From the NCBI GenBank assembly GCA_965247655.1, contig OZ252032.1, positions 5,339,843-5,403,842 on the forward strand: a DNA stretch of 64,000 nt. Direction: 5' to 3'. The first letter of the stretch is position 1. The number at the start of each line of letters is the position of its first letter. Of this stretch, positions 47,431-62,127 are shown one piece after another. The DNA is from Candidatus Poribacteria bacterium. Lineage in GTDB: Bacteria > Poribacteria > WGA-4E > PCPOR2b. The notes beneath the pieces were generated by a model, which searched no databases, was not told the DNA's origin, and saw only the letters and a list, made by a program, of their open reading frames with translations. The position numbers and the translations under genes were made by a program.

Positions 47431-48324
47431 TTAAAAGAAAAACGGATTTGACCACGCTTTCTTGCCGGTCTCATCGGTAATCTCGACGCGGACGTACTTG
47501 ACGCTGTTCGGCACTTCATATGTTGCCTCGGTCAGGGCTTCCCCTTCGGGGGCGACAATGCGTTTTCCACGACTACGCTGGGCTTTGAACACGATGGATT
47601 GTGCCGGTGAACATTTGACGGAAACGCTCCGTTTCTCTTCACCTTCGTCCATCACGTCCAGATCAATTAGCTCCGGTCCGAGGGTTGAATAGAAAGCTCC
47701 GGTGCGAAACCCTGTCATAATAGCATCGGTGGTGAGTTCAGTAGCCTTCACCATGACCCATCCGTGAAAACAGTCGTGTTCCGTGCCGTGTGCGTCGTCG
47801 GAAGCGATGCCGAAGACGGGACGACCTGCCTTGTCCAATAAATCGTCCCAAGCCTGCTCAGAAAAGCCCTTGCCGATGCCCATGCAGGTGTCGTTGTAAA
47901 CTTCAACCGCGAAGTATCCATTCAGTGGCAGATAGTCCAAAAGCGTATGTCCACACCAGTAGGGGTGGCAGAGCACCGCCGCGCCCCCTTGCCGGTTTAT
48001 CTCTTCGATGACGGCGTTGGGATGCAATTCGGCGCAGTTGATGCGCTCATGGAGGTTTATACCGACGATATGATATGTGTCACCGCCATAGGGATTGCTG
48101 GGGTGGACCTCACTGCCAGAGATTGCCAAGAAGCCGTCCCTGCTGTGGGCGGAAACATCGTTGACCTTTCGATGATCGGTCAGCACTAAGAAATCGTAGC
48201 CTGCTTCACGATAAGCTGCGAAGCGGTCTGCCATCGGCAGCCTGCCGTCCGACTCGGTGCTATGGCTGTGGGTATTGCCGCGATACCACTGCCCGGACTG
48301 TTTGAAGGGGTTAACGTTTGACAT
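47431..48324 (-). CDS. PHP-domain metal-dependent phosphoesterase
   Basis: YRGNTHSHSTESDG PHP motif I; AAGGAGA RBS. Confidence 0.75.
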   Translation of the reverse strand: MSNVNPFKQSGQWYRGNTHSHSTESDGRLPMADRFAAYREAGYDFLVLTDHRKVNDVSAHSRDGFLAISGSEVHPSNPYGGDTYHIVGINLHERINCAELHPNAVIEEINRQGGAAVLCHPYWCGHTLLDYLPLNGYFAVEVYNDTCMGIGKGFSEQAWDDLLDKAGRPVFGIASDDAHGTEHDCFHGWVMVKATELTTDAIMTGFRTGAFYSTLGPELIDLDVMDEGEEKRSVSVKCSPAQSIVFKAQRSRGKRIVAPEGEALTEATYEVPNSVKYVRVEITDETGKKAWSNPFFF

Positions 48325-48706
48325 AAAAAATCTCCTTGTTGGTTTCGACAGTTTCGGTTGGGTACTTGTATTTTAACGCAAGTTGCTAGTTGAAAAACAC
48401 CGTTAAAAAATTCTCGGAATTTTCATAGTTTTCATAGTTTTCTCAAGTATTGGATAAAGATAAAAAAGCGGGGAACCCGCGCTACGACCCGTTTCTGTAC
48501 AATTTATACGGGAAGGCTACTCGGACATACTATGAAATCCACGTCGTTTCCTATTTCTGACGATTGGCTGATTAAAGTGGCAGCTTACGTTATTTTAACA
48601 CACTGCTTTCAAAACGAAAATGGAAAAACGATTCAAAACCGCCGAAAAAAAAGATTTACGATCGGGGTGCAGTCGTGTAAAATATAATTAAGGAGAATTG
48701 GTATAA

Positions 48707-49453
48707 ATGAAGACGATTATTATCGGTGCCGGACGTGGCAGACGACTTATGCCTTTAACAGAAGATACACCTAAGTGCTTTGCAGCGGTTAAAGGAAAAC
48801 GCATCCTCGATTGGATACTCGAAGCGTGGCGTGCAGCAGATGTGGGGGATATTGTCTTCGTCGGTGGGTATCAGATTCAACGCATCCAGCACGATTACCC
48901 TGCCTTCCGTTTTTACCACAACACAGATTGGCAGCAGAATAATATCTTAGCCTCGCTTTTTCGCGCCGCAGCCGAAATGAATGAGCCGTTTGCCTGCACC
49001 TATGCGGACATTATCTATCGCCCTTGGGTGACACAGACGTTGATGGATACCCCTTACGACATCACGCTCGTCGTCGATACCGCTTGGCGAGAGCGTTACG
49101 CTGCGCGTACACTTCACCCCGAAGATGATGGTGAAAAAATCCTCGCAGACGGAGCGCGCGTCACAAGAATCAGCCGTGATATAGCACCCGAAGACGCGCA
49201 CGGGGAGTATATCGGCGTTGCAAAATTTAGCGAGCGCGGGGCGGTTCTCCTACGGGACCATTTCCACCGGGTTTGTCATGAATATGACGGCACACCTTTT
49301 CAAGGGGCAGCCTCTGTGCAGAAAGCGTATCTAATTCAACTCTTTCAGGAGATGGTTGAGCAGGGCGTGGAAATCCACAAGGTGGATATTACAGGTGGGT
49401 ATTACGAGATTGATACCACGCAGGATTATGAGATTGCGAATGAAGTTTGGTAG
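48707..49453 (+). CDS. Sugar/alcohol-phosphate nucleotidyltransferase (MobA/LicC-like NTP transferase)
   Basis: IIIGAGRGRRLMPLTEDTPKCF N-terminal signature; AAGGAGA RBS. Confidence 0.7.
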   Translation: MKTIIIGAGRGRRLMPLTEDTPKCFAAVKGKRILDWILEAWRAADVGDIVFVGGYQIQRIQHDYPAFRFYHNTDWQQNNILASLFRAAAEMNEPFACTYADIIYRPWVTQTLMDTPYDITLVVDTAWRERYAARTLHPEDDGEKILADGARVTRISRDIAPEDAHGEYIGVAKFSERGAVLLRDHFHRVCHEYDGTPFQGAASVQKAYLIQLFQEMVEQGVEIHKVDITGGYYEIDTTQDYEIANEVW

Positions 49454-49462
49454 GGATAAAAA

Positions 49463-50626
49463 ATGGCTCAACGCAAAGCACCCCCGGATTCGGCAAGAAC
49501 CGTCCCTGTTCAAAAGCCCTTTGTTCGGTTAGATGATATCGGTAATACCGGTCTTATCTTAGGAATAATAATTGGGGTGCTCATCTTCGGCAGTATTATT
49601 GTCTTTATTGTGTTTTTTGAAGACGATGTTTCTCTTCCCAACGATGCTCTTCCCCTAGGTGTGTCCCTTTTTATTGCAGGGGTTCCATCTGTCGGATTTG
49701 GGGTGGCGAGTTACGCGCTCGTGCGGCGAAAATATGGACTGCAGTGGTCTGCAATCGGACTAACATTCGACAACTGGCGACGCGGTTTGCTCTGGGTACT
49801 AGCACTGCTCCCTATGGCATTGCTCGCCTGTTGGTTGGAAGATCAGGGATGGCGGTGGCTGCTTTATCGGCATTCGATTCCGATTTTGAGCCCGTGGCAT
49901 AGTCCATTAGAATCAATTTCTCTGTGGAGAGAGGATTACGGTATTCTCGGGCATTGTGCAGCAGTGATTGTCGCTATTTTCGTTGTGATTAGTCAAGGCG
50001 TCTTCTTTTGGGGACTCGGATATAACGCTATAGAGCGCGAACATTCATCAGTCTTATCCGGAATTTTTAACGTAGCGTTCGCGCTCCTATTAGCATACTT
50101 GGTGGGATTTCCCTTTCTCCTACCTCTCCCATTTGTATCTGCGTGCGTCATCACCTTTGCATTTACACGCACACGTACTCTACTCACGCCGTTAACAATG
50201 ACAATCGGGGTTTTCGTGTTTTTTCAATGCGTCGTTCAGCCAACATGGTATGCCGTTAATCGATTTACGATACACGGGAATTGTATATGTGCTGACGACG
50301 GCACCCCTTTAGATAACGGGATTGTCACGTATGGTGGCAACGATTACAAAAATGTAACGGTGGTTAAATGGGAGGGGGGGCAGCGAGAGGGTGAGACAAC
50401 GGCTACGTCGTCAGGTGCGTACACATTTCAAAATGTATTGCCACGCGGATATAATATTGCACTCACTGTAACGTCTACGCACTACCATTGGCATGGAACA
50501 GAATCGTTTCCCCCTCTTAAAAAATGTACCTATTCCCATACCGAATTACTCCGTGGGGTCAAAAATGCGCCAAAAAACGTGGAGAGGAATTTTGGCTTGG
50601 AGCCTGACACGGTTGAGACGCCTTGA
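49463..50626 (+). CDS. Polytopic membrane protein with C-terminal carboxypeptidase-regulatory-like beta-sandwich domain
   Basis: Multiple TM helices; C-terminal DDGTPLDNGIVTYGG...GAYTFQNVLPRGYNIALT pattern. Confidence 0.35.
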   Translation: MAQRKAPPDSARTVPVQKPFVRLDDIGNTGLILGIIIGVLIFGSIIVFIVFFEDDVSLPNDALPLGVSLFIAGVPSVGFGVASYALVRRKYGLQWSAIGLTFDNWRRGLLWVLALLPMALLACWLEDQGWRWLLYRHSIPILSPWHSPLESISLWREDYGILGHCAAVIVAIFVVISQGVFFWGLGYNAIEREHSSVLSGIFNVAFALLLAYLVGFPFLLPLPFVSACVITFAFTRTRTLLTPLTMTIGVFVFFQCVVQPTWYAVNRFTIHGNCICADDGTPLDNGIVTYGGNDYKNVTVVKWEGGQREGETTATSSGAYTFQNVLPRGYNIALTVTSTHYHWHGTESFPPLKKCTYSHTELLRGVKNAPKNVERNFGLEPDTVETP

Positions 50627-50698
50627 ATTCAAATTAGCTTTACCAAATCCGAATTGGATGTTGGCATTTGTGAGAAGAATTAGAACAGGAGGGTCCTT

Positions 50699-51424
50699 AT
50701 GCAAATTCTTAATCTCGAATCAGGAACGCCTTTCCAGATGGGCAAGGGAAAAAATTGGCGGGTCGTCCATCCCGATATGGGGGCGACACAGATAACCCTT
50801 AACCACGGACAACATGCGCCCGGTCAGGAGTTCACGCAACATCTTCACGACGAATCGGAGGATATGATTGTGGTGCTTGAGGGTGGCGGTCATATCCGGC
50901 AGGGAGCGGTTTACACGCCAATTATTGCGGGCGATGGAATCTTTGTCCCAGCGCGTGAGGTTCACGGCACTGTCAATACGACAGATCAACCGGCACGACT
51001 TATAAGTTTCCAATCCCCGCCGGATATGGCACTGTACCGTGGCGAACGGGATCACCCCAACGATTCACCGAAACCGGAACTGGGGCACCGAAGCGGTGTA
51101 CAAGTGATTTCGATGGCAAAAGCGGGGCCTGTGTTCGGTAAATCGGGAGATTGGCGTAGTGTTGTTTCACCCCAGAAGGGGAGTCAACATCTGTCGCTCG
51201 ATTACGTCCAACTCAATATCGGCGAAGCGTTCACGCATAAACCCATCGGCGCAGAATCAATTTATGTGCTGATTGGTGGAGGCGCAACGGTACAGACGAA
51301 TGGAGAAACATCAACGCTTGGCTTGAGAGATGTACTCTTTCTCAGTCCTGAAGATACCTTCTCGTTATCACAGGCTGGCAGTGAACCGACCACACTGCTT
51401 CATTGTTGGGCGTTAGCAAAATAG
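50699..51424 (+). CDS. Bicupin-domain protein
   Basis: Two cupin cores (HLHDESEDMIVVLEGGG...VHGTVN and a second C-terminal beta-barrel); GGAGGG RBS. Confidence 0.65.
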   Translation: MQILNLESGTPFQMGKGKNWRVVHPDMGATQITLNHGQHAPGQEFTQHLHDESEDMIVVLEGGGHIRQGAVYTPIIAGDGIFVPAREVHGTVNTTDQPARLISFQSPPDMALYRGERDHPNDSPKPELGHRSGVQVISMAKAGPVFGKSGDWRSVVSPQKGSQHLSLDYVQLNIGEAFTHKPIGAESIYVLIGGGATVQTNGETSTLGLRDVLFLSPEDTFSLSQAGSEPTTLLHCWALAK

Positions 51425-51539
51425 GCAATCAAAGAATGGAAATAGGGGAACAGATTCATAATTTTGAGATAAATTTGCCTCAACGTCTATCAAACTCATC
51501 CAATCACGTTTCATGTTTCACGTTTCATGTATGGAGGCA

Positions 51540-51880
51540 TATTACAGGTCAGCTACCCCGCCCTGAAGGACGGGGCTTGTTGCCCGTCCCGGGACTTACA
51601 GGGTTTTCGGTCTCGGCTCGTAACTTTACACACCCGCCACCGTCCCGAGCAGCTCGGGATTAGAAGCAGCCACAGCGTGTCGGGGACAGCACCGTTTCAA
51701 CTTCCGGGCGAAACCTCAGACAAACAACGTCCCGATCCTATCGGGAGGAGCGAAAAACGAGCGTTTTTCCTAAGTCATCGAGTTACGAGAGAATTATACC
51801 CTATCAACACTTTTTAATCAACAAAAAGGAGGCACAGTGGAGACCCCGCTCTAAAGAACGGGGTCTCCACTGCGAAGATT
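51540..51880 (-). mobile_element. tnpB-less remnant of an IS200/IS605-family element (MITE/PATE-like): RE/tnpB-3' segment plus LE-like hairpin segment
   Basis: 51552-51575 is identical (24/24) to the tnpB 3' end/stop region at 54365-54388 and still encodes ...APSFRAG*; 51826-51877 is homologous to 55741-55798 including TCTCCACTGCGAAGATTTTG and a 10-bp perfect hairpin (51838-51867). Confidence 0.55.
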
Positions 51881-54289
51881 TTGATGAAAGAAGAAACTGG
51901 TGATCTGGCGATTAGCCGACAAGGCAGTCAGGTTATCGCGAAAAACAATCTATTCCAAATCAATTTTGATCTTTCCGAGGGAACCTGGAACTACACCGAT
52001 AAAACGGGTTATAGCATCATCAGGAACGCGTATACGAAGATTATTTTGCAAGATGGGACAGTCCTAACAACACTGGATCCGGGAAGTTCAGAGTTTATTA
52101 CAAGTCCTGCCACCGAAGATGAATCTGGCGTTTACCAACCAATTACATTTGCGCACCAACCCGAAGGGCATGGGGTGCGGACCCATCTCTATCTGAAATG
52201 TTATCCCAGAAAGCCTTATGTTGTATTGACCGTCGGCGTAAAAAACACGCACGAGGCACCAATTACCTTAGAACAGATTTCCACCATTGACGTCTCCCCT
52301 CACAACGGTAAAGCCAAAGGCGGTGTTTATTTAGGAGGTGCACCATCGGGCTATCATACTTTTCTAGACATGAATACACCGATGACATCTGGACTTAAAG
52401 AGATCCACGACGGGTTTCGCATCAACGAAGAGGCTTCGACCACCTCCTGTTACAACGGAGTTCTCTATGACACGGAGAGCAAGCGATCTCTCGTCTTCGG
52501 CTTTTTGAGTTTTCAAAAATGGTGGTCTGCTGTCCAAATGGGATATGATGGAGGCACGCAACAGGGTAAGGAAGAAAACCACGGCGTGAATCACTGGGCT
52601 CTCTACCATAAGTGTGAAAACCATATCTGCCGTCAAGGTGAGGAGGTATACGCTGAGTCTGTTTACTTGAATTTCGCGCATCAGGGGCGGGCGGCATACC
52701 ATGATTACGCCGAGATGGTCGGACGCCGTGTGAAACCAAAATCGCTAAATCGTGTTTTCTCAGGTTGGTGTGCTCAGGATAGTGAGGACAGGACGATAAG
52801 TGCCGCGCAAATTTCCGAACAGATTGAACAGATTACCAAAGACCGATTATCTGACCCATCAATTCCCGGCGGATTTGAGTACATCCAGATTGGAAAGGGT
52901 TGGGAAGCATCAATCGGCAGCTATCAAGCGGATGTGCAGAAGTTTCCAAGTGGGATGAAATCGGTTGCTGACCAGATTCATGCCAAAGGACTAAAAGCCG
53001 GCATCCGATTTACGCCGTTTTGCGTGGAGGCTAGCTCCGAACTCTTGAGAACGCGCTCAGGGTATTTCCTCCAAGAGCGTGGCACAAAGAAGCCTGCCTC
53101 CATCGTTTTGCCGGAAGATGGGAGGGAGGTTGCCGTACTCGATGTATCGCAACCGGGGACGCAGGCGCATATTCGTGAAAATATCCGGAAATTGATTGAT
53201 GAGTGGGGATACGATCTGGTCAAAGCGGATTTACTCGCATACGCAATAGGACCGCTGACAGAACTGAACAACTTTGTGGCACACAACTCATCGCTTACTG
53301 CTGTTGAACTGTATCGCCTCGGGGTTCAGTTACTAAATCAGATTATTGATGACAATGAAAAAGAGGTTGTGCTTGCAGCGTGTAATACATGCCGGGGACC
53401 AAGTATCGGAGACTTTGTGCTGAACGAAACATCTTCAGGTTATGGCGGCTACATCGGCGAAGGGTCTTGGGAGAGTCCGCAAGGGTTAAAACCGATTGTC
53501 AATACCCACGCGGCACATCTTCCGATGTATGGCAACGCATGGACAAATGAGTTTGGCACCCTAAGCATCAACGAACCACTCCCTCTGAATGAAGCACTTA
53601 TTGCAATGACAATGGCAGGAATGAGTGGCGGGGTTGTCACTTGCGGTGATGATTTCACGACACTCAAGCCGGAGCGAGCGGAATTGCTCGCCAAGATTTT
53701 TCCGCTAACTGGTGATTCCGCAATACCTGTTGATCTTTATGAAAACAAATTCCCGCAAATCTGGAATCTACCGGTGATATCTCCCTACGAATCCTACAAT
53801 GTCGTTGGGGTTTTTAACTGGACGAATATAAAGGCAGATGTCGATTTGGCTTTGGATTCGCTCGGTTTAAATCGCTCTCAATATTATCTTGTGCACGATT
53901 TCTGGAACCGTGAATTCCTCGGCAATGTTCGAGAGCGGGTAGCTCTGTTCGATATTCCACCCCGCTCTGTCAAGCTACTGTGTCTACGCGCTGAACAGAA
54001 GGTCCCCCAACTACTCGCTACAGATACTCACCTTACGCAAGGTAGCGTGGATGTCTTGTCCGCCGGCTGGGATAAGCGAAGCCAGAGTTTTTTAGCGGTC
54101 TGCAAGCCCCCTAGGCGCAGCAAAGCAACATTGTTCCTTCATGTACCTGAAGGTTACGCCCCTGCCACAATCGCGTGTTACGGTGCCGACTACCGCTTTC
54201 GTTGGGACAGACAGATCTATGAATTTGAATTCAATTCAAGCACAGCACTCGTACAGGTCAGCGTTCAATTTTCCAAGACATCGGGGTAA
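51881..54289 (+). CDS. Glycoside hydrolase, alpha-galactosidase-like (clan GH-D, GH36/GH27-type)
   Basis: Catalytic-region motifs GIRFTPF and YDLVKADL (KxD); 802 aa. Confidence 0.55.
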   Translation: MMKEETGDLAISRQGSQVIAKNNLFQINFDLSEGTWNYTDKTGYSIIRNAYTKIILQDGTVLTTLDPGSSEFITSPATEDESGVYQPITFAHQPEGHGVRTHLYLKCYPRKPYVVLTVGVKNTHEAPITLEQISTIDVSPHNGKAKGGVYLGGAPSGYHTFLDMNTPMTSGLKEIHDGFRINEEASTTSCYNGVLYDTESKRSLVFGFLSFQKWWSAVQMGYDGGTQQGKEENHGVNHWALYHKCENHICRQGEEVYAESVYLNFAHQGRAAYHDYAEMVGRRVKPKSLNRVFSGWCAQDSEDRTISAAQISEQIEQITKDRLSDPSIPGGFEYIQIGKGWEASIGSYQADVQKFPSGMKSVADQIHAKGLKAGIRFTPFCVEASSELLRTRSGYFLQERGTKKPASIVLPEDGREVAVLDVSQPGTQAHIRENIRKLIDEWGYDLVKADLLAYAIGPLTELNNFVAHNSSLTAVELYRLGVQLLNQIIDDNEKEVVLAACNTCRGPSIGDFVLNETSSGYGGYIGEGSWESPQGLKPIVNTHAAHLPMYGNAWTNEFGTLSINEPLPLNEALIAMTMAGMSGGVVTCGDDFTTLKPERAELLAKIFPLTGDSAIPVDLYENKFPQIWNLPVISPYESYNVVGVFNWTNIKADVDLALDSLGLNRSQYYLVHDFWNREFLGNVRERVALFDIPPRSVKLLCLRAEQKVPQLLATDTHLTQGSVDVLSAGWDKRSQSFLAVCKPPRRSKATLFLHVPEGYAPATIACYGADYRFRWDRQIYEFEFNSSTALVQVSVQFSKTSG

Positions 54290-54480
54290 AACGACGCTGT
54301 ACACCCCGATAGAATCAGGAGATTTCGCTGCGCTCAACACGATACAAAAGGAGGGATTGTCAACTACCCCGCCCTGAAGGACGGGGCCCCCGACAAGTCG
54401 GGATACAAGCACTTGTGATACCGTCCACGGGGGCTTACAGGTTTCGCGCTTCCTTCTCTTTCGAGGGTTTCAGAGCCGTT
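54290..54480 (-). ncRNA. Candidate omega-RNA (reRNA) locus overlapping the tnpB 3' end and right end
   Basis: Position rule for IS200/IS605 TnpB guide RNAs; the segment is conserved in the tnpB-less copy at 51552 and begins next to an 8-bp hairpin (54284-54314). Confidence 0.25.
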
Positions 54481-55800
54481 AGTTACCGGCGTCCCTCCAC
54501 GCAGGGCAGCAGCTGCCCGATTACCAATGTTGATTGCTGCGTTGTGGTCACGGTCAATTATCAACCCACAATCGGGGCAGTAATGGACACGGACAGACAA
54601 CGACTTCTTTACAACCGAACCACACCCTGAGCATTCCTGAGACGTGCCTTGAGGCTTAACTTGCAACAGATGCTTACCAGCTTTTGCAGCTTTGCTTTGC
54701 AGTGTTAAGCGAAAATTACCCCATGCAGCATCAGATATGCTTTTAGAAAGATAGTGGTTTTGAACCATGTTAGTGATTTTCAAGACCTCAACAGCTACCG
54801 CGTCACACTGGGTAAAAAGTTGGTGTGCGGTCTTGTAGTGGAAGTCACGGCGTTGGTTGACAATATGCTCGTGTATCTTGGCAACCCGTTCCCGTTGGTT
54901 ACTATAGCGTCTGCTCCCCTTCTGCCTTTTGGATAACCGACCTTGTGCTTGGCTCAACTTGTGTTCTGATTGACGAAAGTGGCGAGGATTGGCAACCTTA
55001 TCCCCATTGGAAGTGGTTAGAAACGATGCCAAACCGACGTCAATCCCTGTAATCGTTTGGATAGATGCTTCGGGAATCTCAGGTACATCAGGGAGCTGGA
55101 CAGTAATATTTGCATACCAGCCACTGGCTTTCCGTTGTATGGTCAGATTCTTAATTTTGCCATTGGGAAGCGCGCGGTGATAACAAATGGCAACATGCCC
55201 AATCTTGGGCACAACTATCCGAGCCATCCGTTTACGGATATTGCGAATCAACCGTTTAGATAGGTGGCTAAAGGTCATTGAGCGGTATCGGCCTTCACCT
55301 TTGAAGCGTGGGAACCCGGGTGCTTCACCTTTTTCGACACGGACAAAGAACGCTTGATAGGCTTTGTCCAAACGGCGTAAAGTGTCCTGCAAAACATCAC
55401 AGTGCTTGGTTTGCCAGAATTGAGAGACATTGCGAAGTGTGGTCAAATAGGCAGCTTGCGTTCTGTAAGTGATATTTTCCTTGTGCTTGTCGTAGGCTTG
55501 CTTTTTCATATCAAGTGCTTGGTTATAAAGCGTACGACACGCATCAAGCCAAACTTCAAGTGCCTTGCGTTGTTTCATCGTCGGATAAATGCGATATTGA
55601 TATGTTGTTTTCATGGGATTCGGTTTTCTGGATTTCAATCCGGTACTAACGGAGGTGGGAAGCAGCCCGATGGGATCGGGACGTAGTACCTTCCCACGAA
55701 AGCCAACTATAGTATACCATAAAGCCTTTAACAATACATGGAAAAGGAGCGCAGTTTCCTCCCCTCCCTAAAGGGAAGGGATCTCCACTGCGAAGATTTG
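54306..55800 (-). mobile_element. IS200/IS605-family element carrying only tnpB (IS1341-like), about 1.5 kb
   Basis: TnpB ORF flanked by end segments that recur elsewhere in the window (54306-54339 = 56921-56955; 55741-55798 = 51826-51877); no tnpA. Confidence 0.65.
54364..55614 (-). CDS. tnpB: TnpB (OrfB) RNA-guided endonuclease-like transposon protein
   Basis: N-terminal MKTTYQYRIYPT, RuvC-like ITGIDVGL, AVAVEVLK and DRDHNAAINI, zinc finger CSGCG...CPDCG; start at ATG 55614. Confidence 0.85.
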   Translation of the reverse strand: MKTTYQYRIYPTMKQRKALEVWLDACRTLYNQALDMKKQAYDKHKENITYRTQAAYLTTLRNVSQFWQTKHCDVLQDTLRRLDKAYQAFFVRVEKGEAPGFPRFKGEGRYRSMTFSHLSKRLIRNIRKRMARIVVPKIGHVAICYHRALPNGKIKNLTIQRKASGWYANITVQLPDVPEIPEASIQTITGIDVGLASFLTTSNGDKVANPRHFRQSEHKLSQAQGRLSKRQKGSRRYSNQRERVAKIHEHIVNQRRDFHYKTAHQLFTQCDAVAVEVLKITNMVQNHYLSKSISDAAWGNFRLTLQSKAAKAGKHLLQVKPQGTSQECSGCGSVVKKSLSVRVHYCPDCGLIIDRDHNAAINIGNRAAAALRGGTPVTNGSETLEREGSAKPVSPRGRYHKCLYPDLSGAPSFRAG

Positions 55801-56817
55801 ATGAACTATTCTCAAGTATTAAAGGAACTTGAAGGTCTCGTCAATGAGACCTACGGTTTATGGGATCATAACCGTGTTGGATTCCAATGGCGGCACTACA
55901 CATGGAACCACACGATGCGGGTCCGCGCCATGAGCATGGAACTTGGCAGGCGCGAGGGTGGCGACGTCACCAAGCTCGAAGTCGCGGGAACCCTGCACGA
56001 TATCACCAAGCGGTATGATGGTGAAATTTTGTCGGATGAAAACGGCAAGCGGGTCGTTAATCATGACGGACTCTGGCTGAATGAACAACTCACGCCGAGT
56101 CGAGAGAATCTCGTCACCCGGCTTTATGACGAAAACAATCTTGGCGGCACGGTTCACCACGAGTCAGGAGCAGTTGTCACCGAGAAGATACTGGCGATGT
56201 ATGATTTCGATCAGGATTTTGTTGACGCGGTCCGTGCCATTGTGTTAGCACACCTGAAACCGATGAACCTCACCGAGGATCGGTATGATTTCCTCTACGG
56301 AAACGTCGAAAATCAGATTCTCTATGACGCTGACACAATGGATCCAAATGTCGGCTATACCGCATTTTTCCGCAACGTCCACATCCACAGCTATTCCGCT
56401 ATCCGGCGCAACGGCAAGTTCGATCTTGAGGAGTATGTCCAGAGTCTACCTCGCTGGGTCAATTCCAAGCAGGCTTTCGTCGAACATTTATTGACAGAAT
56501 CGGCGAAGGAGATCGGGCAGGCACGACAGGATCGAAACCGGGAGTTGGCGGATCAGATCGCAGCGGAAGCAGGAGATATGGAGACGAATCGAAAATACGG
56601 GCTGCTCGGCGTCATTGAATACTTCGTCAGCGACACCGAAGATCCGCACTTTATGAACCAATTGGCGTATCTCAAGGAGCATTGGATCCCGGAGCGGCAG
56701 AAACAACTCGCTGAGGAAGAAACCACGGAGGCGGCTCGGGATCGTGCGAGTGAGGCGTTGGATCGGGTGATTGATTTCACTAATACGCTTGAGCGGGAGT
56801 ATCAGGGGGAAATTTGA
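55801..56817 (+). CDS. HD-domain phosphohydrolase
   Basis: H...HD motif (HTMRV...VAGTLHDITK); ATG 55801 preferred because the upstream 60 nt is the IS end segment. Confidence 0.65.
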   Translation: MNYSQVLKELEGLVNETYGLWDHNRVGFQWRHYTWNHTMRVRAMSMELGRREGGDVTKLEVAGTLHDITKRYDGEILSDENGKRVVNHDGLWLNEQLTPSRENLVTRLYDENNLGGTVHHESGAVVTEKILAMYDFDQDFVDAVRAIVLAHLKPMNLTEDRYDFLYGNVENQILYDADTMDPNVGYTAFFRNVHIHSYSAIRRNGKFDLEEYVQSLPRWVNSKQAFVEHLLTESAKEIGQARQDRNRELADQIAAEAGDMETNRKYGLLGVIEYFVSDTEDPHFMNQLAYLKEHWIPERQKQLAEEETTEAARDRASEALDRVIDFTNTLEREYQGEI

Positions 56818-56955
56818 GGTAGACAGGCGAGAAGATATGTTTTGATAGGAACGACGATATTCTGTACAACTGAGGGATTGGGGCAACCTAATCCCTCAAT
56901 TTCTCAAACCCTATAGACGCCGCCCCGATAGATTGGGATTTCGCTGCGCTCAACT

Positions 56956-57342
56956 TCACTCTTCAACCAACTCTCTTCCGGCAAACCCGGCATCAATCTC
57001 GTGCCAGTATAAGATTGCTTCTTCCCCAGCCCTCCAGCAGAGGTAGACTTCCCTACCCTCGCGAAGGTGAGGGAAGTCAATTAACCCCGGATTTATATCT
57101 TTTATCGTGCATCCATAGGACTGAATTTCTTCAATAGCGTCCCGGAACTTTCCTGTTAATCCGAGAAACTGCGGTGTTTTTCGATGCCCACCGTTGTGAC
57201 GAATGACCTCAAAGAGCGGAGTCAATTCTGCCCCAAGTTGTTCTAACTCCACCCGAAATTCCCTCAATTCTGACAATCTCTGTTCTAGCGTAGGGATCAG
57301 CCGGTTCGCTTCTTCTACAGTAAAATATCTCTTTTGTCGCAT
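56956..57342 (-). CDS. DUF2203-family protein
   Basis: YFTVEEANRLIPTLE N-terminus and DINPGLIDFPHL motif characteristic of DUF2203. Confidence 0.55.
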   Translation of the reverse strand: MRQKRYFTVEEANRLIPTLEQRLSELREFRVELEQLGAELTPLFEVIRHNGGHRKTPQFLGLTGKFRDAIEEIQSYGCTIKDINPGLIDFPHLREGREVYLCWRAGEEAILYWHEIDAGFAGRELVEE

Positions 57343-57484
57343 TGTTCACCCAACCTTTATTCTATGATAAGTTTTGATGCTGTCCGCTAATAACGATTTA
57401 CAGAAGTGTAACCCATATCCGATAAAATGTCAAAAGAGTTAATTGGATGTAGAAATTCACAAAATAATTTGGAGGCTTTTACCA

Positions 57485-60400
57485 GTGCGTATTAGCAGTT
57501 ATCTGTTCCGCCCCCGATGGATCGGGAGGCAAACACCTGTCCGTTTTTGCACACTCGTTGGCTCTTTTTTTCTATTTGGAGTTAGCGTTATTCTGATGTT
57601 AGTTTTTTGCGGAGCAGCATCAGCCGACGAAGACTCGTCAGATGTGAAACCTTACGGAATCGATCGGCGGATCCCGTGGGAGACATCCCGCGTCGTGGGT
57701 GCACCTGATGCCACCGATGATCTCTCAATCTTAGGACGCGAACCGGGGCGGTTTGTGGAGGCAGGAAAAGTAATCTTCAACGGGAAGGGTTCCTGCTATT
57801 CATGCCACACACTAAATCCTTCGGCACTGCCGGGAAGGGGACCGGATCTCACCGATATTGGGGCGCACGCTGCAACCCGAAAACCGGGGATGGGGGCAAA
57901 GGCGTATCTGATCGAATCCCTCTATGACCCAGCCATATTCCTCGTCCATGGGTACGGTAGGATTATGACGCCGGCGTGGAAACCCCCAATCAGTCTGTCA
58001 AATTTAGAGATTGAAACAGTCATCGCATTCCTTCAGAGTCAGGGAGGAGAAGTGAATCTAGCACCGTTTGAACCACCGGTTGATATACAAACCGTTGCAA
58101 GGGAGATGGAGGCACGTCCACTTATCCATGTCGCAGACGCCGAACGAGGGGCGGATGTATTTGTCAATGTCGTAAAATGTATTGCATGTCACGATGTTGA
58201 TAGAGTTGAGAAGCCGGAGGATCAAATCCTCGACGATGGGGTTGAGGTCTTTCCGGGTCCTGACCTAACGGGCATTGCAGCATTAAATAGCATCGGTTAT
58301 ATCGAAGAATCAATTTTGAAACCGAACGCCGAGATTGTGCGCGGATACGGTGTGGCATCCGTTGCAACCGGCGGCGTGGTTCTTCAGGGGACGCTTATCT
58401 CACAGGATAATGAAAAAATCGTTCTGCATATCGAAGGATCGACGGAGCCAACGGAAAGGACGCTCCTTTTGAGCGAGACTGATCCTGAACCCATTGAAGT
58501 GTTGACGGATTTGGCAGAGAAAGGGTATTTTTGGATTCAGGTGACGCCCGCCAATTCGGAACCGATTCGCGGAGATTTCGTCCGAGAGGATGAAGAGACG
58601 GTTACGCTCAAGGTTGAAACTTCCCCCGAAGGGATGCAAACGGTATCAAAATCAAATTTGAAGACCTACGTAACTGTCACCTTATTTGACAGCGAGTCGG
58701 TTGTTGGTACGTCAGTCTCTGAAAACGAGAACCAAATTGTCTTAGAGGTTAGCGGTGTGGAACGAACCATAGATAAATTCGATATTGACGAGGGTCCAAC
58801 CTACAGCCGCGCTTTCGGGAAGCGAATCAATGTGAAATCCGCGATGCCGGATAACTATGCACAACTCCTATCGGTTGATGACCACTACAACCTGCTCGCA
58901 TTCCTATCAACGCTGACCGGCAAAACGTCAGGGTCAGAGTCCGGACCGACTTTATCACTCCGCCCCAAACAGACATTCACTAAATTTCCATTAGATCAAC
59001 CGGTGTATATTGAGCCTGAGCCGGGCACTGACCAACTGCTTGTCATCGAACTAGGGGGTAAGATTCGTCGTTTCAAAGACGATACGGAGGCAGAAAACGC
59101 CGAATTTCTGATTAATACTGGGCGCGAGACTTACGGCTTGACATTCCATCCAAATTACGAAGAAAACGGCTATCTCTATGTTGTCAGCAATGGACCGATA
59201 GGAGGGAAAGTTACTGAGACCAAAAACTATGTTTCGCGCTTTACGGTGGAGCGTCAGTCCCCGTATCGCTGTGATCCGAACTCCGAGCTGATTATCCTAG
59301 AGTGGCAATCGAACAATCACAACGGCGGCGATCTTGCGTTCGGTCCCGATGGATACCTCTACATCTCCGCCGGCGATGGCGCAATGGATTCCGATACCAA
59401 CCTTACCGGTCTTCCCGGAAGCTACGATAGAGATCCCAAGGGGCAAGATCTCAGCAACCTGCCTGCGACAATTATGCGCATTGATGTCGATCATCCGGAG
59501 ATGGAACGCCCCTATTCAATTCCAAGCGATAACCCTTTCGTCCATCTTGAGGGTGCGCGTCCCGAAATTTGGGTCTACGGGATTCGCAACCCTTGGCGAA
59601 TCACCTTCGACCACGAGACCGGGCATCTGTGGGCGGGAAACGTCGGGCAGGATCGGTGGGAGATGATTCATCTGGTACGTCGCGGGGCCAACTACGGCTG
59701 GAGCCTTTACGAAGGCAGCCATCCCTTCTTTCTCAACCGCAAACCGGGGCCCACGCCGGTTGTCAAACCAACGGTCGAACACCCCCACTCCGAAGCCCGT
59801 TCAATCACCGGGGGAGTCGTCTATTATGGCTCAAAGTTTCCCGAATTGCGGGGTGCCTACGTCTACGGCGACTACGCAACTGGAAAGATGTGGGCACTGC
59901 GGCACGACGGAGAGAAACTGATCTGGCATCGGGAAATTGCCGATACAACGCTACAGATCGTGAGTTTCGGCGTTGACCATAACGACGAAATATTAATCGC
60001 AGATCTAGCACGTGGTATCTATCAATTAGAGCGCGAGTCCGAATCTACAGAAAAGTTTCCGACCCGCTTGAGCGAAACGGGCTTATTTATATCAGTGAAA
60101 GACCTTCAGACCGACCCGGGACTGATTCCCTATTCAGTAAACGCACCGCTGTGGGTGGATGGGGCGCACGTAGAACGATTCATCGCCTTACCGGGTGATT
60201 CTCAGATTGAGATGTCGGCTGCCGATGGGGTTGGCTGGAGTTTCCTCGATGAAGCGGCACTGATTCAAACCTTCGCGCTCGATCTGGAAACGGGAAACCC
60301 CACCTCCAGACACCGGATTGAAACACGGCTGCTGACCCGACAACAGGGTGAGTGGGTGGGATATTCTTATATCTGGAACGACGAGCAAACCGACGCAACC

Positions 60401-61039
60401 CTTGTGGATGCCGCTGGAACAGATCGTGTCTTCACGGTTCAGGATTCAAGTGCCCCTGATGGCAACCGAGAACAGTCTTGGCACTATCCCAGCCGGAAGG
60501 AGTGTATGGAATGCCACAGTCGCGCTGTCAACTACGTCTTGGGAGTTACCACGCTCCAGATGAACAAAGTCCACAATTACGGCACCGTTTCGGACAATCA
60601 ACTGCGGACGTTGAACCATATCGGCGTTTTCAAGAAACCGCTGTCGAAGCCGCCGGAGGAGTACCCCAAACTAGCTGACCCATACAACTCCAAAGAACCT
60701 CTTGAGGCAAGGGCGCGGTCCTATTTACACGCTGCGTGTGCAAATTGCCATGTCCACACAGGCGGTGGCAATGCTCGTATCGTGTTAGACTTCACAACGG
60801 AACTAGATAAAACCTACAGCGTTGGTTTTCGTCCGCAGCACGATACCTATGGCATCCCTGATGCAATGCTCATTGCACCGGGTGATCCAGGACGTTCGAT
60901 CCTTTACCAGCGTGTTGCTCGGCACGGTGAGGGTCAAATGCCGCCTCTGGCAACCTCACAAAAAGACGAACAAGCGGCGCAACTGCTATACGATTGGATC
61001 TCACAGATGAAACCGACTCCTGAAAATGAGAGGCATTAG
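57485..61039 (+). CDS. Multidomain cytochrome c / PQQ-type soluble sugar (glucose/sorbosone) dehydrogenase fusion protein
   Basis: Heme CxxCH motifs CYSCH, CIACH, CMECH, CANCH; beta-propeller GSDH motifs LAFGPDGYLYISAGDG, WVYGIRNPW; signal peptide; GTG start 9 nt after GGAGG. Confidence 0.7.
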   Translation: MRISSYLFRPRWIGRQTPVRFCTLVGSFFLFGVSVILMLVFCGAASADEDSSDVKPYGIDRRIPWETSRVVGAPDATDDLSILGREPGRFVEAGKVIFNGKGSCYSCHTLNPSALPGRGPDLTDIGAHAATRKPGMGAKAYLIESLYDPAIFLVHGYGRIMTPAWKPPISLSNLEIETVIAFLQSQGGEVNLAPFEPPVDIQTVAREMEARPLIHVADAERGADVFVNVVKCIACHDVDRVEKPEDQILDDGVEVFPGPDLTGIAALNSIGYIEESILKPNAEIVRGYGVASVATGGVVLQGTLISQDNEKIVLHIEGSTEPTERTLLLSETDPEPIEVLTDLAEKGYFWIQVTPANSEPIRGDFVREDEETVTLKVETSPEGMQTVSKSNLKTYVTVTLFDSESVVGTSVSENENQIVLEVSGVERTIDKFDIDEGPTYSRAFGKRINVKSAMPDNYAQLLSVDDHYNLLAFLSTLTGKTSGSESGPTLSLRPKQTFTKFPLDQPVYIEPEPGTDQLLVIELGGKIRRFKDDTEAENAEFLINTGRETYGLTFHPNYEENGYLYVVSNGPIGGKVTETKNYVSRFTVERQSPYRCDPNSELIILEWQSNNHNGGDLAFGPDGYLYISAGDGAMDSDTNLTGLPGSYDRDPKGQDLSNLPATIMRIDVDHPEMERPYSIPSDNPFVHLEGARPEIWVYGIRNPWRITFDHETGHLWAGNVGQDRWEMIHLVRRGANYGWSLYEGSHPFFLNRKPGPTPVVKPTVEHPHSEARSITGGVVYYGSKFPELRGAYVYGDYATGKMWALRHDGEKLIWHREIADTTLQIVSFGVDHNDEILIADLARGIYQLERESESTEKFPTRLSETGLFISVKDLQTDPGLIPYSVNAPLWVDGAHVERFIALPGDSQIEMSAADGVGWSFLDEAALIQTFALDLETGNPTSRHRIETRLLTRQQGEWVGYSYIWNDEQTDATLVDAAGTDRVFTVQDSSAPDGNREQSWHYPSRKECMECHSRAVNYVLGVTTLQMNKVHNYGTVSDNQLRTLNHIGVFKKPLSKPPEEYPKLADPYNSKEPLEARARSYLHAACANCHVHTGGGNARIVLDFTTELDKTYSVGFRPQHDTYGIPDAMLIAPGDPGRSILYQRVARHGEGQMPPLATSQKDEQAAQLLYDWISQMKPTPENERH

Positions 61040-61050
61040 GAGGAATGGCG

Positions 61051-62040
61051 TCAATCTATCCTATATGACAAATCAATCTGCGCTGAACTGCCAATGTTGA
61101 ACTGATGGAAACCTCCGTATATCCTTGCATCGGTACCAATGACTGATTGGTGGATTAGGACATCTTGTACTTCCGCATTCGGGTGGATAATCGCATCTTT
61201 AATAATCGCATTGACAACCCGCGTTCCATTGCCAATCGAGGCATGGGGACCGATAATAGTGCCCTCAATAACAGTGCCCTCCCCGATAAAGACGGGCGGG
61301 ATAACCACACTGTTGGGAAAGCGATAAATTTGCGGTGCCCGTTTTTCTAAAATAGACTGATTGGCTGCCAAGAGTTGGTCTGTTGTGCCGCAATGTAGCG
61401 AGTTAATGAACTCGACCTTCATCTGCTCGCCATATTCTAACATCAACTGCAACCCATCTGTCAACTGATATTCGTTGTGGGTACGGATATCTCTTTCAAT
61501 AATCTCATCTAGACAGCGGAACAGCAGTTCGCTATTTTGGATGTAATACGCGCCTTCAATAACAAGGTTTGTCGGTGGATTTTCAGGCTTCTCGATCAGG
61601 CGCGTAATAAACTTGCCATCCGTCTCAACGATACCGACTCCTTGCGGATTCTCGACCATCTTAACGCCGATAACCGTGTAAGGATTCTGGACAATTTTTT
61701 GATAGCCACATTCAAAGATTTTATCACCGAGCAGAATCAGAAGGGGTTCTCCATTGTCGCACTCTTTAGCCAGTGAGATAGCATGTCCGAGTCCCTTTGG
61801 TTCATTTTGCCAAATATAGGTTGCGGGCAGATTGTAGTACCTGTCGACATATTCGCGGAGCTGCTCTCCCTTGTCACCGACGATGAGAATCAGTTCGGAG
61901 AGATCGGGAAGTTCAAGGAGCGATTCAAGGAGATAGTTGAGGATGGGACGTCCTGCGACATGTATGAGCGTTTTAGGGGAAGTGAAAGTGTGAGGTCTGA
62001 GTCGTGTGCCGCTGCCTGCGGTAGGGATAATGACTTTCAT
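61051..62040 (-). CDS. Sugar-1-phosphate nucleotidyltransferase with C-terminal left-handed beta-helix (hexapeptide) domain
   Basis: MKVIIPTAGSGTRLRP signature, hexapeptide repeats at the C-terminus; AAGGAAGGAA RBS before ATG 62040. Confidence 0.75.
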   Translation of the reverse strand: MKVIIPTAGSGTRLRPHTFTSPKTLIHVAGRPILNYLLESLLELPDLSELILIVGDKGEQLREYVDRYYNLPATYIWQNEPKGLGHAISLAKECDNGEPLLILLGDKIFECGYQKIVQNPYTVIGVKMVENPQGVGIVETDGKFITRLIEKPENPPTNLVIEGAYYIQNSELLFRCLDEIIERDIRTHNEYQLTDGLQLMLEYGEQMKVEFINSLHCGTTDQLLAANQSILEKRAPQIYRFPNSVVIPPVFIGEGTVIEGTIIGPHASIGNGTRVVNAIIKDAIIHPNAEVQDVLIHQSVIGTDARIYGGFHQFNIGSSAQIDLSYRID

Positions 62041-62127
62041 CAAGGTTCCTTCCTTCGATGATCTGGCTGCCTTTGGGTTCAAAGCGAAACTTCAACGGCA
62101 AGAGTCCCAAATCCGAAAGGGCCGCTA

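What the first reader, a model, noticed from the sequence alone, without database searches (positions are those of the whole stretch)
51826..51889. IS left-end segment abuts the ATG of two unrelated genes
The sequence ...CTAAAG(N6)GGGNTCTCCACTGCGAAGATT(T)TG is followed directly by ATG at both 51881 (glycoside hydrolase, MMKEET...) and 55801 (HD-domain protein, MNYSQV...). Neither start has a conventional Shine-Dalgarno sequence. Both are instead preceded by the element hairpin. Either the element targets a TTGATGA-like site that overlaps start codons, or the IS end supplies promoter or translation-initiation signals to the neighbouring gene.
Basis: seen in the sequence. Interest (0 to 1): 0.6.

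Follow-up and report, generated by a model that had tools for sequence, protein, structure and literature searches.

The report
Transposon ends docked on start codons
Two small TnpB-type transposons have landed exactly between the ribosome-binding site and the ATG of two genes, because their five-base target, TTCAT, is the reverse complement of the common gene start ATGAA; this follows from known transposon biology, but the same family does it often and the hit genes seem to stay functional.

Summary
The shared ~46-nt segment is the left end (LE) of two non-autonomous IS200/IS605-type elements on the minus strand. One is a 336-bp gene-less mini element (51548-51883). The other is a 1442-bp tnpB-only element (54359-55800).

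A syntenic relative (L001) has cupin-GH-HD with neither element. Deleting the two intervals restores gap-free colinearity, with no target duplication. Both elements therefore sit precisely between the native Shine-Dalgarno sequence and the ATG (GH ATG 51884, HD ATG 55801; both are true starts).

In 27 independent copies from Candidatus Poribacteria the LE always follows (T)TCAT. This is the usual "insert 3' of a pentanucleotide" rule, and TTCAT is the reverse complement of ATGAA.

Twelve of the 27 copies abut a real start codon, and none interrupts a gene interior. One such insertion, at an ornithine carbamoyltransferase gene, is shared by diverged lineages, and that gene remains under purifying selection.

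No outward promoter was found. On the gene strand the LE reads A-rich GGAG(G), then a hairpin, then 8-9 nt, then ATG. This could be a hairpin-bridged replacement ribosome-binding site, but that is untested. Overall it is a known kind of element with one interesting, unproven twist.

The parts
51548..51883 (-). Mini, gene-less IS200/IS605-type element (PATE-like), 336 bp: left end, promoter-like site, about 190 nt unique interior, right end
   Evidence: Shares a 29-nt right-end block (97%) and a ~46-nt left-end block with the full element. Removing it restores gap-free colinearity with the empty site in L001. LE (~90 nt) and RE (~60 nt) match family members at 80-97%.
51548..51576 (-). Right-end terminal block of the mini element: hairpin GCCCCGTCC-TTCA-GGGCGGGG followed by TAGCTGAC (element terminus)
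   Evidence: Repeat family D9. The RE terminus ...GGGGTA(G/A)(T/C)TGAC is conserved in all family copies.
51793..51821 (-). Sigma-70-like promoter TTGATT-17-TATAAT reading into the mini element (inferred to drive its omega-RNA-like interior)
   Evidence: 10 of 12 matches. A homologous position in relatives carries TTGAAT/TTGATT ... TACAAT/TATAAT.
51833..51874 (.). Left-end subterminal hairpin of the mini element (presumed TnpA binding site)
   Evidence: -35 kcal/mol, z = -6.0. Family-wide covariation is shown.
51828..51832 (+). GGAGG on the gene strand, 2-3 nt 5' of the LE hairpin: candidate replacement Shine-Dalgarno (inferred)
   Evidence: Sequence. GGAG or GAGG is present at this position in 21 of 27 aligned family left ends.
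51875..51883 (-). Terminal linker of the left end (CAAAATCTT on the element strand); the element ends at G51883
51884..51888 (-). Target/TAM 5'-TTCAT-3' on the element strand, equal to the ATGAA start of the glycoside hydrolase gene
51884..54289 (+). Melibiase-family glycoside hydrolase gene, 801 aa, intact
   Evidence: Pfam hits to Melibiase. The orthologue in L001 is called at 801 aa from the same start.
51533..51537 (+). Native Shine-Dalgarno (GGAGG) of the GH gene, now displaced 336 bp further from its ATG
   Evidence: The empty site in L001 reads GGAGGCATATTACCG|ATGAAAG.
54359..55800 (-). Full non-autonomous IS200/IS605 (IS1341-type, tnpB-only) element, 1442 bp
54364..55614 (-). tnpB, 416 aa (HTH_OrfB_IS605, OrfB_IS605/RuvC, Cas12f1-like_TNB). 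D/E/D and CxxC motifs are present. No Shine-Dalgarno precedes its ATG.
   Evidence: E = 1e-56 to ISDra2 TnpB 8bf8.
54359..54525 (-). Conserved structured block overlapping the tnpB 3' end and running to the RE terminus: omega-RNA scaffold (inferred)
   Evidence: Alignment A1. 13 base pairs show compensatory changes. There is a weak, sub-threshold Rfam hit to sot0042.
54339..54358 (-). Predicted omega-RNA guide (AATCCCTCCTTTTGTATCGT), antisense to the displaced HD leader (inferred from the TnpB model)
   Evidence: Position immediately 3' of the RE terminus. Its function is inferred from Meers et al. 2023 (bioRxiv 10.1101/2023.03.14.532601).
54350..54354 (+). Native Shine-Dalgarno (GGAGG) of the HD gene, now displaced 1442 bp further from its ATG
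   Evidence: The empty site in L001 reads AAAAGGAGGCTCT|ATGAACT.
55706..55734 (-). Sigma-70-like promoter TTGTTA-17-TATAGT for tnpB
55750..55792 (.). Left-end subterminal hairpin of the full element: outer stem CGCAGT/ACTGCG, internal loop, inner stem
55746..55749 (+). GGAG on the gene strand, directly 5' of the hairpin: candidate replacement Shine-Dalgarno (inferred)
55793..55800 (-). Terminal linker of the left end (CAAATCTT on the element strand); the element ends at G55800
55801..55805 (-). Target/TAM 5'-TTCAT-3' on the element strand, equal to the ATGAA start of the HD-domain gene
55801..56817 (+). HD-domain protein gene, 338 aa, intact

Best explanation
The repeated segment is the left end (LE) of two related, non-autonomous IS200/IS605-family elements lying on the minus strand. 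One is a 336-bp gene-less mini element; the other is a 1442-bp element carrying tnpB and its 3' guide-RNA (omega-RNA) scaffold. Like all members of this family, they were inserted as single strands by a Y1 TnpA transposase supplied in trans. Insertion is immediately 3' of a fixed pentanucleotide, here 5'-TTCAT-3', and makes no target duplication. TTCAT is the reverse complement of ATGAA, so a copy that lands on the antisense strand of a gene beginning Met-Lys or Met-Asn ends up exactly between that gene's ribosome-binding site and its ATG. That happened twice in this window. The LE comprises an 8-9-nt linker, a covarying two-helix hairpin (the presumed TnpA binding site), a CTCC/T-rich tract and the promoter for tnpB.

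Shown: the element limits, the empty sites, the TAM, the true start codons, the recurrence of this arrangement in the family, the absence of gene-interior insertions, and continued purifying selection on one abutted gene.

Inferred: selection removes gene-disrupting copies while start-codon copies are tolerated. I also infer that the abutted genes are still translated from read-through transcripts. The mechanism I think most likely, at roughly one chance in three, is that the GGAG(G) just 5' of the LE hairpin is brought next to the ATG when the hairpin folds.
For: - Element identity: Pfam finds HTH_OrfB_IS605, OrfB_IS605 and Cas12f1-like_TNB in the 416-aa ORF. It matches ISDra2 TnpB at E = 1e-56, with catalytic motifs present.
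- Ends: the two elements share RE and LE blocks.
- Empty sites: the syntenic locus L001 (HD protein 94% identical) has cupin-GH-HD with no element. Removing 51548-51883 and 54359-55800 gives gap-free alignment across both junctions with no duplication, restoring GGAGG-N10-ATG and GGAGG-N4-ATG.
- TAM: all 27 independent TCAT-type copies have the LE preceded by NTCAT, mostly TTCAT. A sister subfamily uses TCAC.
- True starts: (Pfam profiles begin at protein residues 4-26).
- Recurrence: 12 of 27 independent copies abut a start codon, including TPP enzyme, UvrC, Fe-ADH, Zn-ADH, Antibiotic_NAT and OTCase genes. No copy splits a gene interior. Start codons make up about 7% of all ATGAA sites (p ~5e-7 for 9 of 17 TTCAT-type copies) but about 20-23% of the non-coding-or-start sites.
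- Persistence: the OTCase insertion is found in at least 10 assemblies carrying three TnpB variants. OTCase is intact with pN/pS 0.10-0.42, and element pS (0.02-0.03) is similar to flank pS in three lineages.
- LE hairpin covariation: 91.7% of cells paired, 7 pairs with double changes, 0 of 500 shuffles as good.
- Omega-RNA-like covariation.
- Literature: a TTCAT TAM and gene-less PATEs carrying omega-RNAs are described for Geobacillus IS200/IS605 elements (bioRxiv 10.1101/2023.03.14.532601).
Against: - No tnpA was found in either element, and none was searched for in the genome, so the transposase is assumed.
- The excess of start-codon copies over a 'tolerated sites' null is only about 2-fold. 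It is not robust once the two window copies (ascertainment) and two unannotated ORFs are excluded (p = 0.02-0.2). That null rests on a crude home-made gene finder.
- There are no expression data. No outward promoter is predicted, and read-through must cross 1.4 kb of antisense tnpB against the tnpB promoter.
- GC skew suggests that the element's active strand lies on the leading-strand template here, opposite to the IS608 rule (weak).
- The OTCase argument assumes that the insertion predates the lineage split. L177 and L178 carry identical elements in flanks that differ by 8% locally, which shows that recombination has moved the element or its flanks.
Confidence: 0.85

Rival explanations
1. 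The left end is an adapted, portable ribosome-binding site. The family has evolved an outward-facing GGAG(G) placed so that the folded LE hairpin brings it about 8-9 nt from whatever ATG follows the TAM. This would make start codons safe harbours for the element.
For: - Gene-strand architecture: an A-run, GGAG/GAGG, the stem, AAGATTTG, then ATG, conserved across 27 diverged left ends (21 of 27 have GGAG or GAGG).
- The motif lies upstream of the tnpB promoter, so it is not part of the tnpB mRNA.
- The hairpin-deleted copy L031 reads GGAG-CGAAGATTTG-ATG, which is an ordinary SD spacing.
- Start-codon copies are not depleted, and they include uvrC- and argF-like genes.
- OTCase is still under constraint.
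- Two distant TnpB families with other apparent targets (Okeania and Crinalium groups) lack the motif. Their ends were not verified.
Against: - The complement, CTCC plus a T run, has plausible element-strand roles: a terminator tail after the hairpin, an UP-like tract before the -35, or a TnpA contact.
- Relatedness of the copies inflates the apparent conservation.
- The TCAC subfamily keeps the motif although 0 of about 7 distinct sites abut a GTG start.
- In the mini element the predicted fold pairs the AUG region.
- There are no expression data.
Confidence: 0.3
2. The insertions are simply knock-downs. Splitting the RBS from the ATG silences or cripples the genes, and the copies survive because the genes are dispensable or the insertions are recent. 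The SD-like motif is incidental.
For: - Both window insertions are absent from a relative at 94% protein identity, so they are recent.
- No outward promoter is predicted.
- OTCase pN/pS (0.19-0.42) is higher than that of the neighbouring PALP gene (0.02-0.04) in three lineage pairs, which is compatible with relaxed constraint.
Against: - All 12 abutted ORFs are intact.
- OTCase has fewer non-synonymous changes than neutrality predicts (12 of about 23 against an expected 77%, p = 0.008).
- The same junction is kept in at least 10 assemblies.
- Gene-interior insertions are absent, which shows effective purifying selection, yet start-codon copies make up 44% of the sample.
Confidence: 0.3
3. Target choice goes beyond the pentanucleotide. 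The transposase, or the availability of single-stranded DNA, favours RBS-to-start-codon regions, so the enrichment at start codons is mechanistic rather than selective.
For: - There is a roughly 2-fold excess over the intergenic-plus-start null.
- There is a mild T preference at position -6 of the flank.
- The OTCase upstream region hosts two different elements in different genomes (L019 against L172).
Against: - The flanks share nothing beyond (T)TCAT.
- Fifteen of the 27 copies lie at sites that are not start codons.
- The excess is not statistically robust.
Confidence: 0.1
4. The shared segment is an ordinary conserved leader or regulatory hairpin of the two genes, unrelated to any mobile element.
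For: None beyond its position upstream of two ATGs.
Against: - Orthologous GH and HD genes in L001 and L002 have different, SD-containing leaders and lack the segment.
- The segment always co-occurs with a matching right end, and usually with tnpB.
Confidence: 0.01

Closest known systems
IS200/IS605 family, tnpB-only (IS1341-type) elements such as ISDra2 and the Geobacillus stearothermophilus ISGst elements (Karvelis 2021, own knowledge; Meers 2023, bioRxiv 10.1101/2023.03.14.532601)
   Same: Subterminal hairpins instead of inverted repeats. Insertion 3' of a fixed pentanucleotide without duplication. TnpB carrying HTH, RuvC and zinc-ribbon domains. A structured RNA overlapping the tnpB 3' end and finishing at the RE. 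TTCAT itself is a known TAM (the ISGst5 IscB element).
   Different: This is a new lineage in Candidatus Poribacteria (TnpB matches ISDra2 TnpB 8bf8 at E = 1e-56 over residues 5-373). No tnpA was seen. About 44% of the sampled copies sit exactly on start codons, a pattern I did not find described in my paper searches. A purine-rich GGAG tract flanks the LE hairpin on the outward strand.
PATEs (palindrome-associated transposable elements): gene-less IS200/IS605 derivatives
   Same: The 336-bp mini element has family LE and RE and no gene. Its 3' ~100 nt resemble the omega-RNA scaffold. Meers 2023 notes PATEs that encode omega-RNAs.
   Different: It keeps a strong internal promoter (TTGATT-17-TATAAT). 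About 190 nt of its interior match none of the full elements sampled.
IStrons (IS200/IS605 elements fused to a group I intron; bioRxiv 10.1101/2023.11.20.567912)
   Same: A family member that lowers the cost of landing in or next to a gene. This is a comparison of concept only.
   Different: IStrons splice themselves out of the mRNA. No intron is present here. The cost reduction, if any, would come from landing outside the reading frame and perhaps from supplying an RBS.
Hairpin-bridged ('split') ribosome-binding sites of phage T4 genes 38 and 25 (own knowledge, not checked here)
   Same: A stable hairpin between the Shine-Dalgarno sequence and the AUG brings the two to functional spacing. Here the arrangement is GGAG(G), then a 42-43-nt hairpin, then 8-9 nt, then AUG.
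   Different: The T4 cases are native, experimentally proven leaders. Here the arrangement is created by a transposon end and is untested.
IS elements that activate neighbouring genes through outward promoters (for example IS10 pOUT and ISAba1; own knowledge)
   Same: A transposon end that influences expression of the adjacent gene.
   Different: No outward promoter-like site was found in this LE.

Membership tests
IS200/IS605 family insertion sequence | No terminal inverted repeats; subterminal imperfect hairpins at both ends | tested here: met
   The LE hairpin is supported by covariation. The RE hairpin GCCCCGTCC/GGGCGGGG is conserved, with compensatory changes. The two ends are not inverted repeats of each other.
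IS200/IS605 family insertion sequence | Insertion 3' of a conserved tetra- or pentanucleotide at the left end, with no target-site duplication | tested here: met
   Empty-site comparison for both window copies. (T)TCAT precedes the LE in 27 independent copies.
IS200/IS605 family insertion sequence | Y1 (HUH) TnpA transposase | not tested
   There is no room for tnpA in either element: about 190 nt separate the LE from tnpB, and the mini element has no gene. The rest of the window and the source genome were not searched for a Y1 transposase, so mobilisation in trans is assumed.
IS200/IS605 family insertion sequence | TnpB accessory nuclease with HTH, RuvC and zinc-ribbon domains | tested here: met
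   Pfam PF12323, PF01385 and PF07282. E = 1e-56 to ISDra2 TnpB. The motifs GIDVG, AVEVL, DRDHNAA and CxxC...CxxC are aligned.
IS200/IS605 family insertion sequence | Omega (right-end) guide RNA overlapping the tnpB 3' end, with the guide continuing past the RE | tested here: inconclusive
   A conserved ~165-nt block has 13 covarying pairs. No Rfam family reaches threshold. There are no transcript data, so the guide is inferred from its position.
PATE (gene-less IS200/IS605 derivative) | Family LE and RE flanking a short interior without a transposase or tnpB gene | tested here: met
   The 336-bp element has LE and RE matches to many family members and was inserted in the same manner. The only ORFs of at least 80 aa overlapping it (86 and 96 aa, + strand) start outside the element.
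Hairpin-bridged Shine-Dalgarno leader | An SD-like motif and the AUG brought to functional spacing by an intervening stable hairpin | tested here: inconclusive
   The geometry is present and conserved. The SD-like tract is unpaired in most of the predicted folds. There is no functional test.
IS with outward-facing promoter | A promoter in the terminal segment that reads out of the element | tested here: not met
   No + strand sigma-70-like site occurs in 51793-51883 or 55615-55800. Only inward (minus-strand) promoters are found. This is a consensus scan only.

The most novel reading that the evidence does not exclude
This IS200/IS605 lineage uses start codons as safe harbours. Its TAM (TTCAT, or TCAC in a sister group) is the complement of a start codon plus the next bases. 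Its left end carries an outward GGAG(G) that the TnpA-binding hairpin folds to within 8-9 nt of the captured ATG. The element would then replace the ribosome-binding site it displaces, and the host gene would keep working. This would be a cost-mitigation strategy comparable in spirit to IStron self-splicing.
Probability: 0.3. Interest if true: 0.7.

Novelty: new member of a known kind. Interest (0 to 1): 0.45.

Why it matters
TnpB elements are the ancestors of Cas12 and are being developed as genome editors, so their natural target rules and their fitness costs to the host are of current interest. This case gives a clean natural example, with empty sites, of a TTCAT-TAM TnpB lineage in an uncultured phylum. 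It also shows that a TAM complementary to ATGAA places a large share of surviving copies exactly between RBS and ATG. If the left end really supplies a replacement, hairpin-bridged RBS, that would be a new way for a transposon to neutralise its own insertion cost. It would also provide a compact, portable translation-initiation module. For annotation, genes whose ATG is preceded by this 60-nt end should not be re-called at downstream starts or flagged as lacking an RBS.

Tried and rejected
1. A conserved native leader: rejected, because the orthologous loci L001 and L002 lack the segment.
2. A TTGATGA target: rejected, because TTTG is the element terminus.
3. True starts further downstream: rejected by homologue lengths and Pfam coordinates.
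4. An outward promoter in the LE: none found by consensus scan.
5. A translated N-terminal extension from ATG 55738 (21 extra codons in frame): unlikely, since it has no SD, is not conserved, and all homologues are 337-338 aa.
6. Rfam: only a tRNA at gathering threshold. The relaxed search gives sub-threshold hits (HgcC at E = 0.011, sot0042 at E = 0.45), which I treat as noise or at most a hint.
7. Exact look-up of the window's TnpB protein: not on record.
8. Metagenome scan for the LE 20-mer: 0 hits. The metagenome scan with TnpB gave only three usable close relatives.
9. Comparing left ends of distant TnpB families (Okeania, Crinalium, Chloroflexia, Bacilli) to ask whether the GGAG tract is specific to TCAT-type elements: their boundaries could not be fixed without empty sites, so this is only a weak indication.
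10. An apparent pairing between TAM plus linker (TTCATCAAA) and the -35 region (TTTGTTGAA): it is seen in some copies but not in the full window element, so I dropped it.
11. Replication-strand bias from GC skew: too weak in a 64-kb window to use.
Full report
**1. The observation**

The 18-mer TCTCCACTGCGAAGATTT occurs exactly twice in the 64-kb window, at 51864-51881 and 55782-55799. Dinucleotide shuffles give a mean of 0.07 matches, and none of 100 shuffles reaches two. A gapped alignment extends the similarity to about 46 nt (85%) and runs through GATGAA in both copies. Each copy is directly followed by ATGAA.

The glycoside hydrolase ATG is at 51884. Position 51881 is an in-frame TTG that lies inside the repeated segment.

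**2. What the segment belongs to**

The ORF at 54364-55614 on the minus strand (416 aa from the first Met) carries the three TnpB domains: HTH_OrfB_IS605, OrfB_IS605 and Cas12f1-like_TNB. It matches the solved ISDra2 TnpB at E = 1e-56, and the D/E/D and CxxC motifs are in place.

Besides the 46-nt block, the two loci share a second block. Positions 51548-51576 and 54359-54387 are 97% identical, and in the second locus this block lies at the tnpB stop codon.

There are therefore two elements, both on the minus strand, each bounded by the same right end (RE) and left end (LE):
- a 1442-bp tnpB element at 54359-55800;
- a 336-bp element without a gene at 51548-51883.

The mini element keeps about 90 nt of LE, including a strong inward promoter (TTGATT-17-TATAAT). 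It also keeps about 60-100 nt of RE that align with the 3' structured block of full elements. This matches what the literature calls a PATE.

**3. Empty sites**

HD homologues identify the organism as Candidatus Poribacteria. The contig encoding the closest homologue (94% identity, L001) is syntenic: cupin, then an 801-aa GH, then a 338-aa HD, with intergenic gaps of 116 and 96 bp and no element.

Deleting 51548-51883 and 54359-55800 from the window gives alignments to L001 with no gap at either junction and no duplicated bases. The restored sites read:
- GGAGGCATATTACAG|ATGAAAG
- AAAAGGAGGGATT|ATGAACT

L001 has GGAGGCATATTACCG|ATGAAAG and AAAAGGAGGCTCT|ATGAACT. Both elements therefore sit exactly between a canonical Shine-Dalgarno sequence and the start codon. 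The TTTG/TTTTG before the ATG is the element's own terminus. A more distant syntenic relative (L002, 79% identity) also has ordinary leaders.

**4. True start codons**

120 HD homologues are mostly 335-340 aa and cover about 100% of the 338-aa query. The GH orthologue is called at 801 aa from the same ATGAAAGAAGAA.

**5. The target rule**

A scan of one genome per species with the TnpB protein returned 30 Poribacteria loci. Exact-protein look-ups added 20 more places.

On the element strand the LE reads: TAM|CAAATCTTCGCAG, hairpin, CTGCG(C)CTCC, a T run, then the -35. The RE ends ...GGGCGGGGTA(G/A)(T/C)TGAC|.

In 27 independent copies whose TnpB is at least about 57% identical to the window's, the base string before the LE is NTCAT, mostly TTCAT. 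A sister group at 59-67% identity uses TCAC. This is the family's standard behaviour of inserting 3' of a pentanucleotide. TTCAT has already been reported as the TAM of a Geobacillus IscB element. Its reverse complement is ATGAA.

**6. How often the family lands on start codons**

I took the complement of each LE flank and measured the ORF that begins at the junction ATG. Twelve of the 27 independent TCAT-type copies abut a long ORF:

| Source | Abutted gene | Length (aa) |
|---|---|---|
| window, mini element | GH | 801 |
| window, full element | HD | 338 |
| L005 | TPP enzyme | 583 |
| L006 | ABC-2 permease | 238 |
| L007 | UvrC | 613 |
| L021 | Fe-ADH | 400 |
| L022 | beta-helix protein | 397 |
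| L030 | Zn-ADH | 355 |
| L168-171 | Antibiotic_NAT | 246 |
| L172-180 | ornithine carbamoyltransferase (OTCase) | 304 |
| L010 | unannotated ORF | 164 |
| L014 | unannotated ORF (lipoprotein-like signal peptide) | 122 |

Pfam profiles start within residues 4-26 of these proteins, and the database's own gene calls begin at the junction.

After reconstructing the empty sites, no copy splits a gene interior. The remaining copies lie in intergenic DNA or within a few codons of gene ends.

With a crude gene finder on 240 kb of Poribacteria sequence, start codons account for about 7% of all ATGAA sites, but for 20-23% of sites that are either intergenic or start codons. Against the first null the excess is very large (p ~5e-7 for 9 of 17 TTCAT-type copies). 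Against the second it is about 2-fold. It is not robust once the two window copies (which triggered the finding) and the two unannotated ORFs are set aside (p = 0.02-0.2). The safe conclusion is that start-codon insertions are tolerated at least as well as other intergenic insertions.

**7. Is the abutted gene still in use?**

The OTCase insertion gives some leverage. The same junction (AGATTCAT|CAAATC...) occurs in at least 10 assemblies from different samples, carrying three TnpB protein variants.

Among lineages L172, L178 and L180, synonymous divergence of the element (0.02-0.03) is similar to that of the flanking genes (0.02-0.055). This fits an insertion older than their split. OTCase is intact in all of them, with pN/pS of 0.19-0.42. 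On my rough tree estimate from the pairwise counts, about 12 of about 23 changes are non-synonymous against 77% expected under neutrality (p = 0.008).

Two cautions apply. The neighbouring PALP gene is more constrained (pN/pS 0.02-0.04). And L177 and L178 carry an identical element, plus 29 and 89 nt of flank, next to an OTCase 5' region that differs by about 8%. Recombination or homing has therefore moved the element or its flanks.

**8. What might replace the displaced RBS**

No sigma-70-like promoter faces outward from either LE. The only matches there are the inward tnpB and mini-element promoters, and on the element strand the hairpin plus T run looks terminator-like. Transcripts for the abutted genes would have to read through the element.

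On the gene strand every LE has the same layout: an A run, GGAG/GAGG (21 of 27 aligned left ends), the hairpin (42-43 nt in the window copies), AAGATTT(T)G, then ATG.
- In the full element, GGAG (55746-55749) touches the stem and 8 nt separate the stem from the ATG.
- In the mini element, GGAGG (51828-51832) lies 2-3 nt before the stem and 9-11 nt follow it.
- The hairpin covaries (7 pairs with double changes, 91.7% of cells paired, 0 of 500 shuffles as good), as expected for a TnpA binding site.
- In L031, where the hairpin is deleted, the sequence collapses to GGAG-CGAAGATTTG-ATG, an ordinary RBS spacing.

This resembles the hairpin-bridged ribosome-binding sites of phage T4 genes 38 and 25 (my own knowledge, not checked here). 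The complementary CTCC/T-run could equally serve the element strand, so I rate this reading at about 0.3.

**9. Other anatomy**

The ~165 nt from within the tnpB 3' end to the RE terminus are conserved and have 13 covarying pairs, consistent with an omega-RNA scaffold. The 20 nt beyond the RE (54339-54358, minus strand) would be its guide. Together with TTCAT they reconstitute the empty site, as the published homing model requires. No Rfam family reaches threshold. No tnpA was seen or searched for.

**10. Verdict**

The promoter idea is not supported. The translation-signal idea remains open. The elements are new members of a known kind. The recurrent, tolerated docking on start codons and the possible portable RBS are the parts worth an experiment.

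Noticed in passing
L177 vs L178, locus coordinates 2268-3817 (OTCase locus, ENA ERZ25067264 / ERZ26167216): The element plus 29 nt (LE side) and 89 nt (RE side) of flank is 100% identical between two lineages. Their adjacent OTCase 5' region differs at 18 of about 220 positions. This looks like recombination or homing with tracts that hug the element.
   Followed up: partly
window 54364-55614 (-), upstream of 55614; also L013, L030, L031: tnpB has no Shine-Dalgarno sequence. Its ATG is preceded by a conserved ...AGAAAGCCAAATCCC(A)ATG after a structured 5' leader (GGCTTTCGTGGGAG...CTCCCAC), although host genes nearby use strong GGAGG sites.
   Followed up: no
L019, L085, L087, L088, L035 (between LE and tnpB): More distant relatives carry a small ORF (about 45-50 aa, for example MKTTLNLRIDEDLHAFLKRYAKENHTTITGLI...) between the LE promoter and tnpB. 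The window elements lack it.
   Followed up: no
window 54388-54412 (-): The full window element has a 25-nt insertion (TGCTTGTATCCCGACTTGTCGGGGG, a small hairpin) just 5' of the RE hairpin. None of the 15 aligned relatives has it.
   Followed up: no
L016, L028, L032 (OZ242315.1, OZ220744.1, OZ242335.1): A TCAC-type element sits at the same site in three different Poribacteria genomes, 13 nt upstream of the ATG of a co-oriented gene (RE flank AGAGGGAAAAGATG). This is either an old or a recurrent insertion.
   Followed up: no
L019 RE flank vs L172 LE flank: The OTCase gene's upstream region hosts two different family elements in different genomes, in opposite arrangements (RE-side against LE-side). 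It may be an insertion hot spot.
   Followed up: no
window 22104-23239 and 27069-28203: Two segments of at least 300 nt are repeated at 91% identity with a spacing of about 4965 nt (families D1 and D2). This looks like a duplicated gene or gene pair.
   Followed up: no
window 316-1017, 4355-4785, 38920-39513: Short degenerate direct-repeat families (29-42 nt, 62-86% identity; D3-D5), probably repeated protein motifs within large genes.
   Followed up: no
window 48001-64000: GC skew is positive on the + strand (0.025-0.044). The elements' active (minus) strand would then lie on the leading-strand template, opposite to the lagging-strand preference described for IS608. The signal is too weak to interpret in 64 kb.
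   Followed up: partly
window 10452-10524 (-): A tRNA gene, the only Rfam match at gathering threshold in the window.
   Followed up: no
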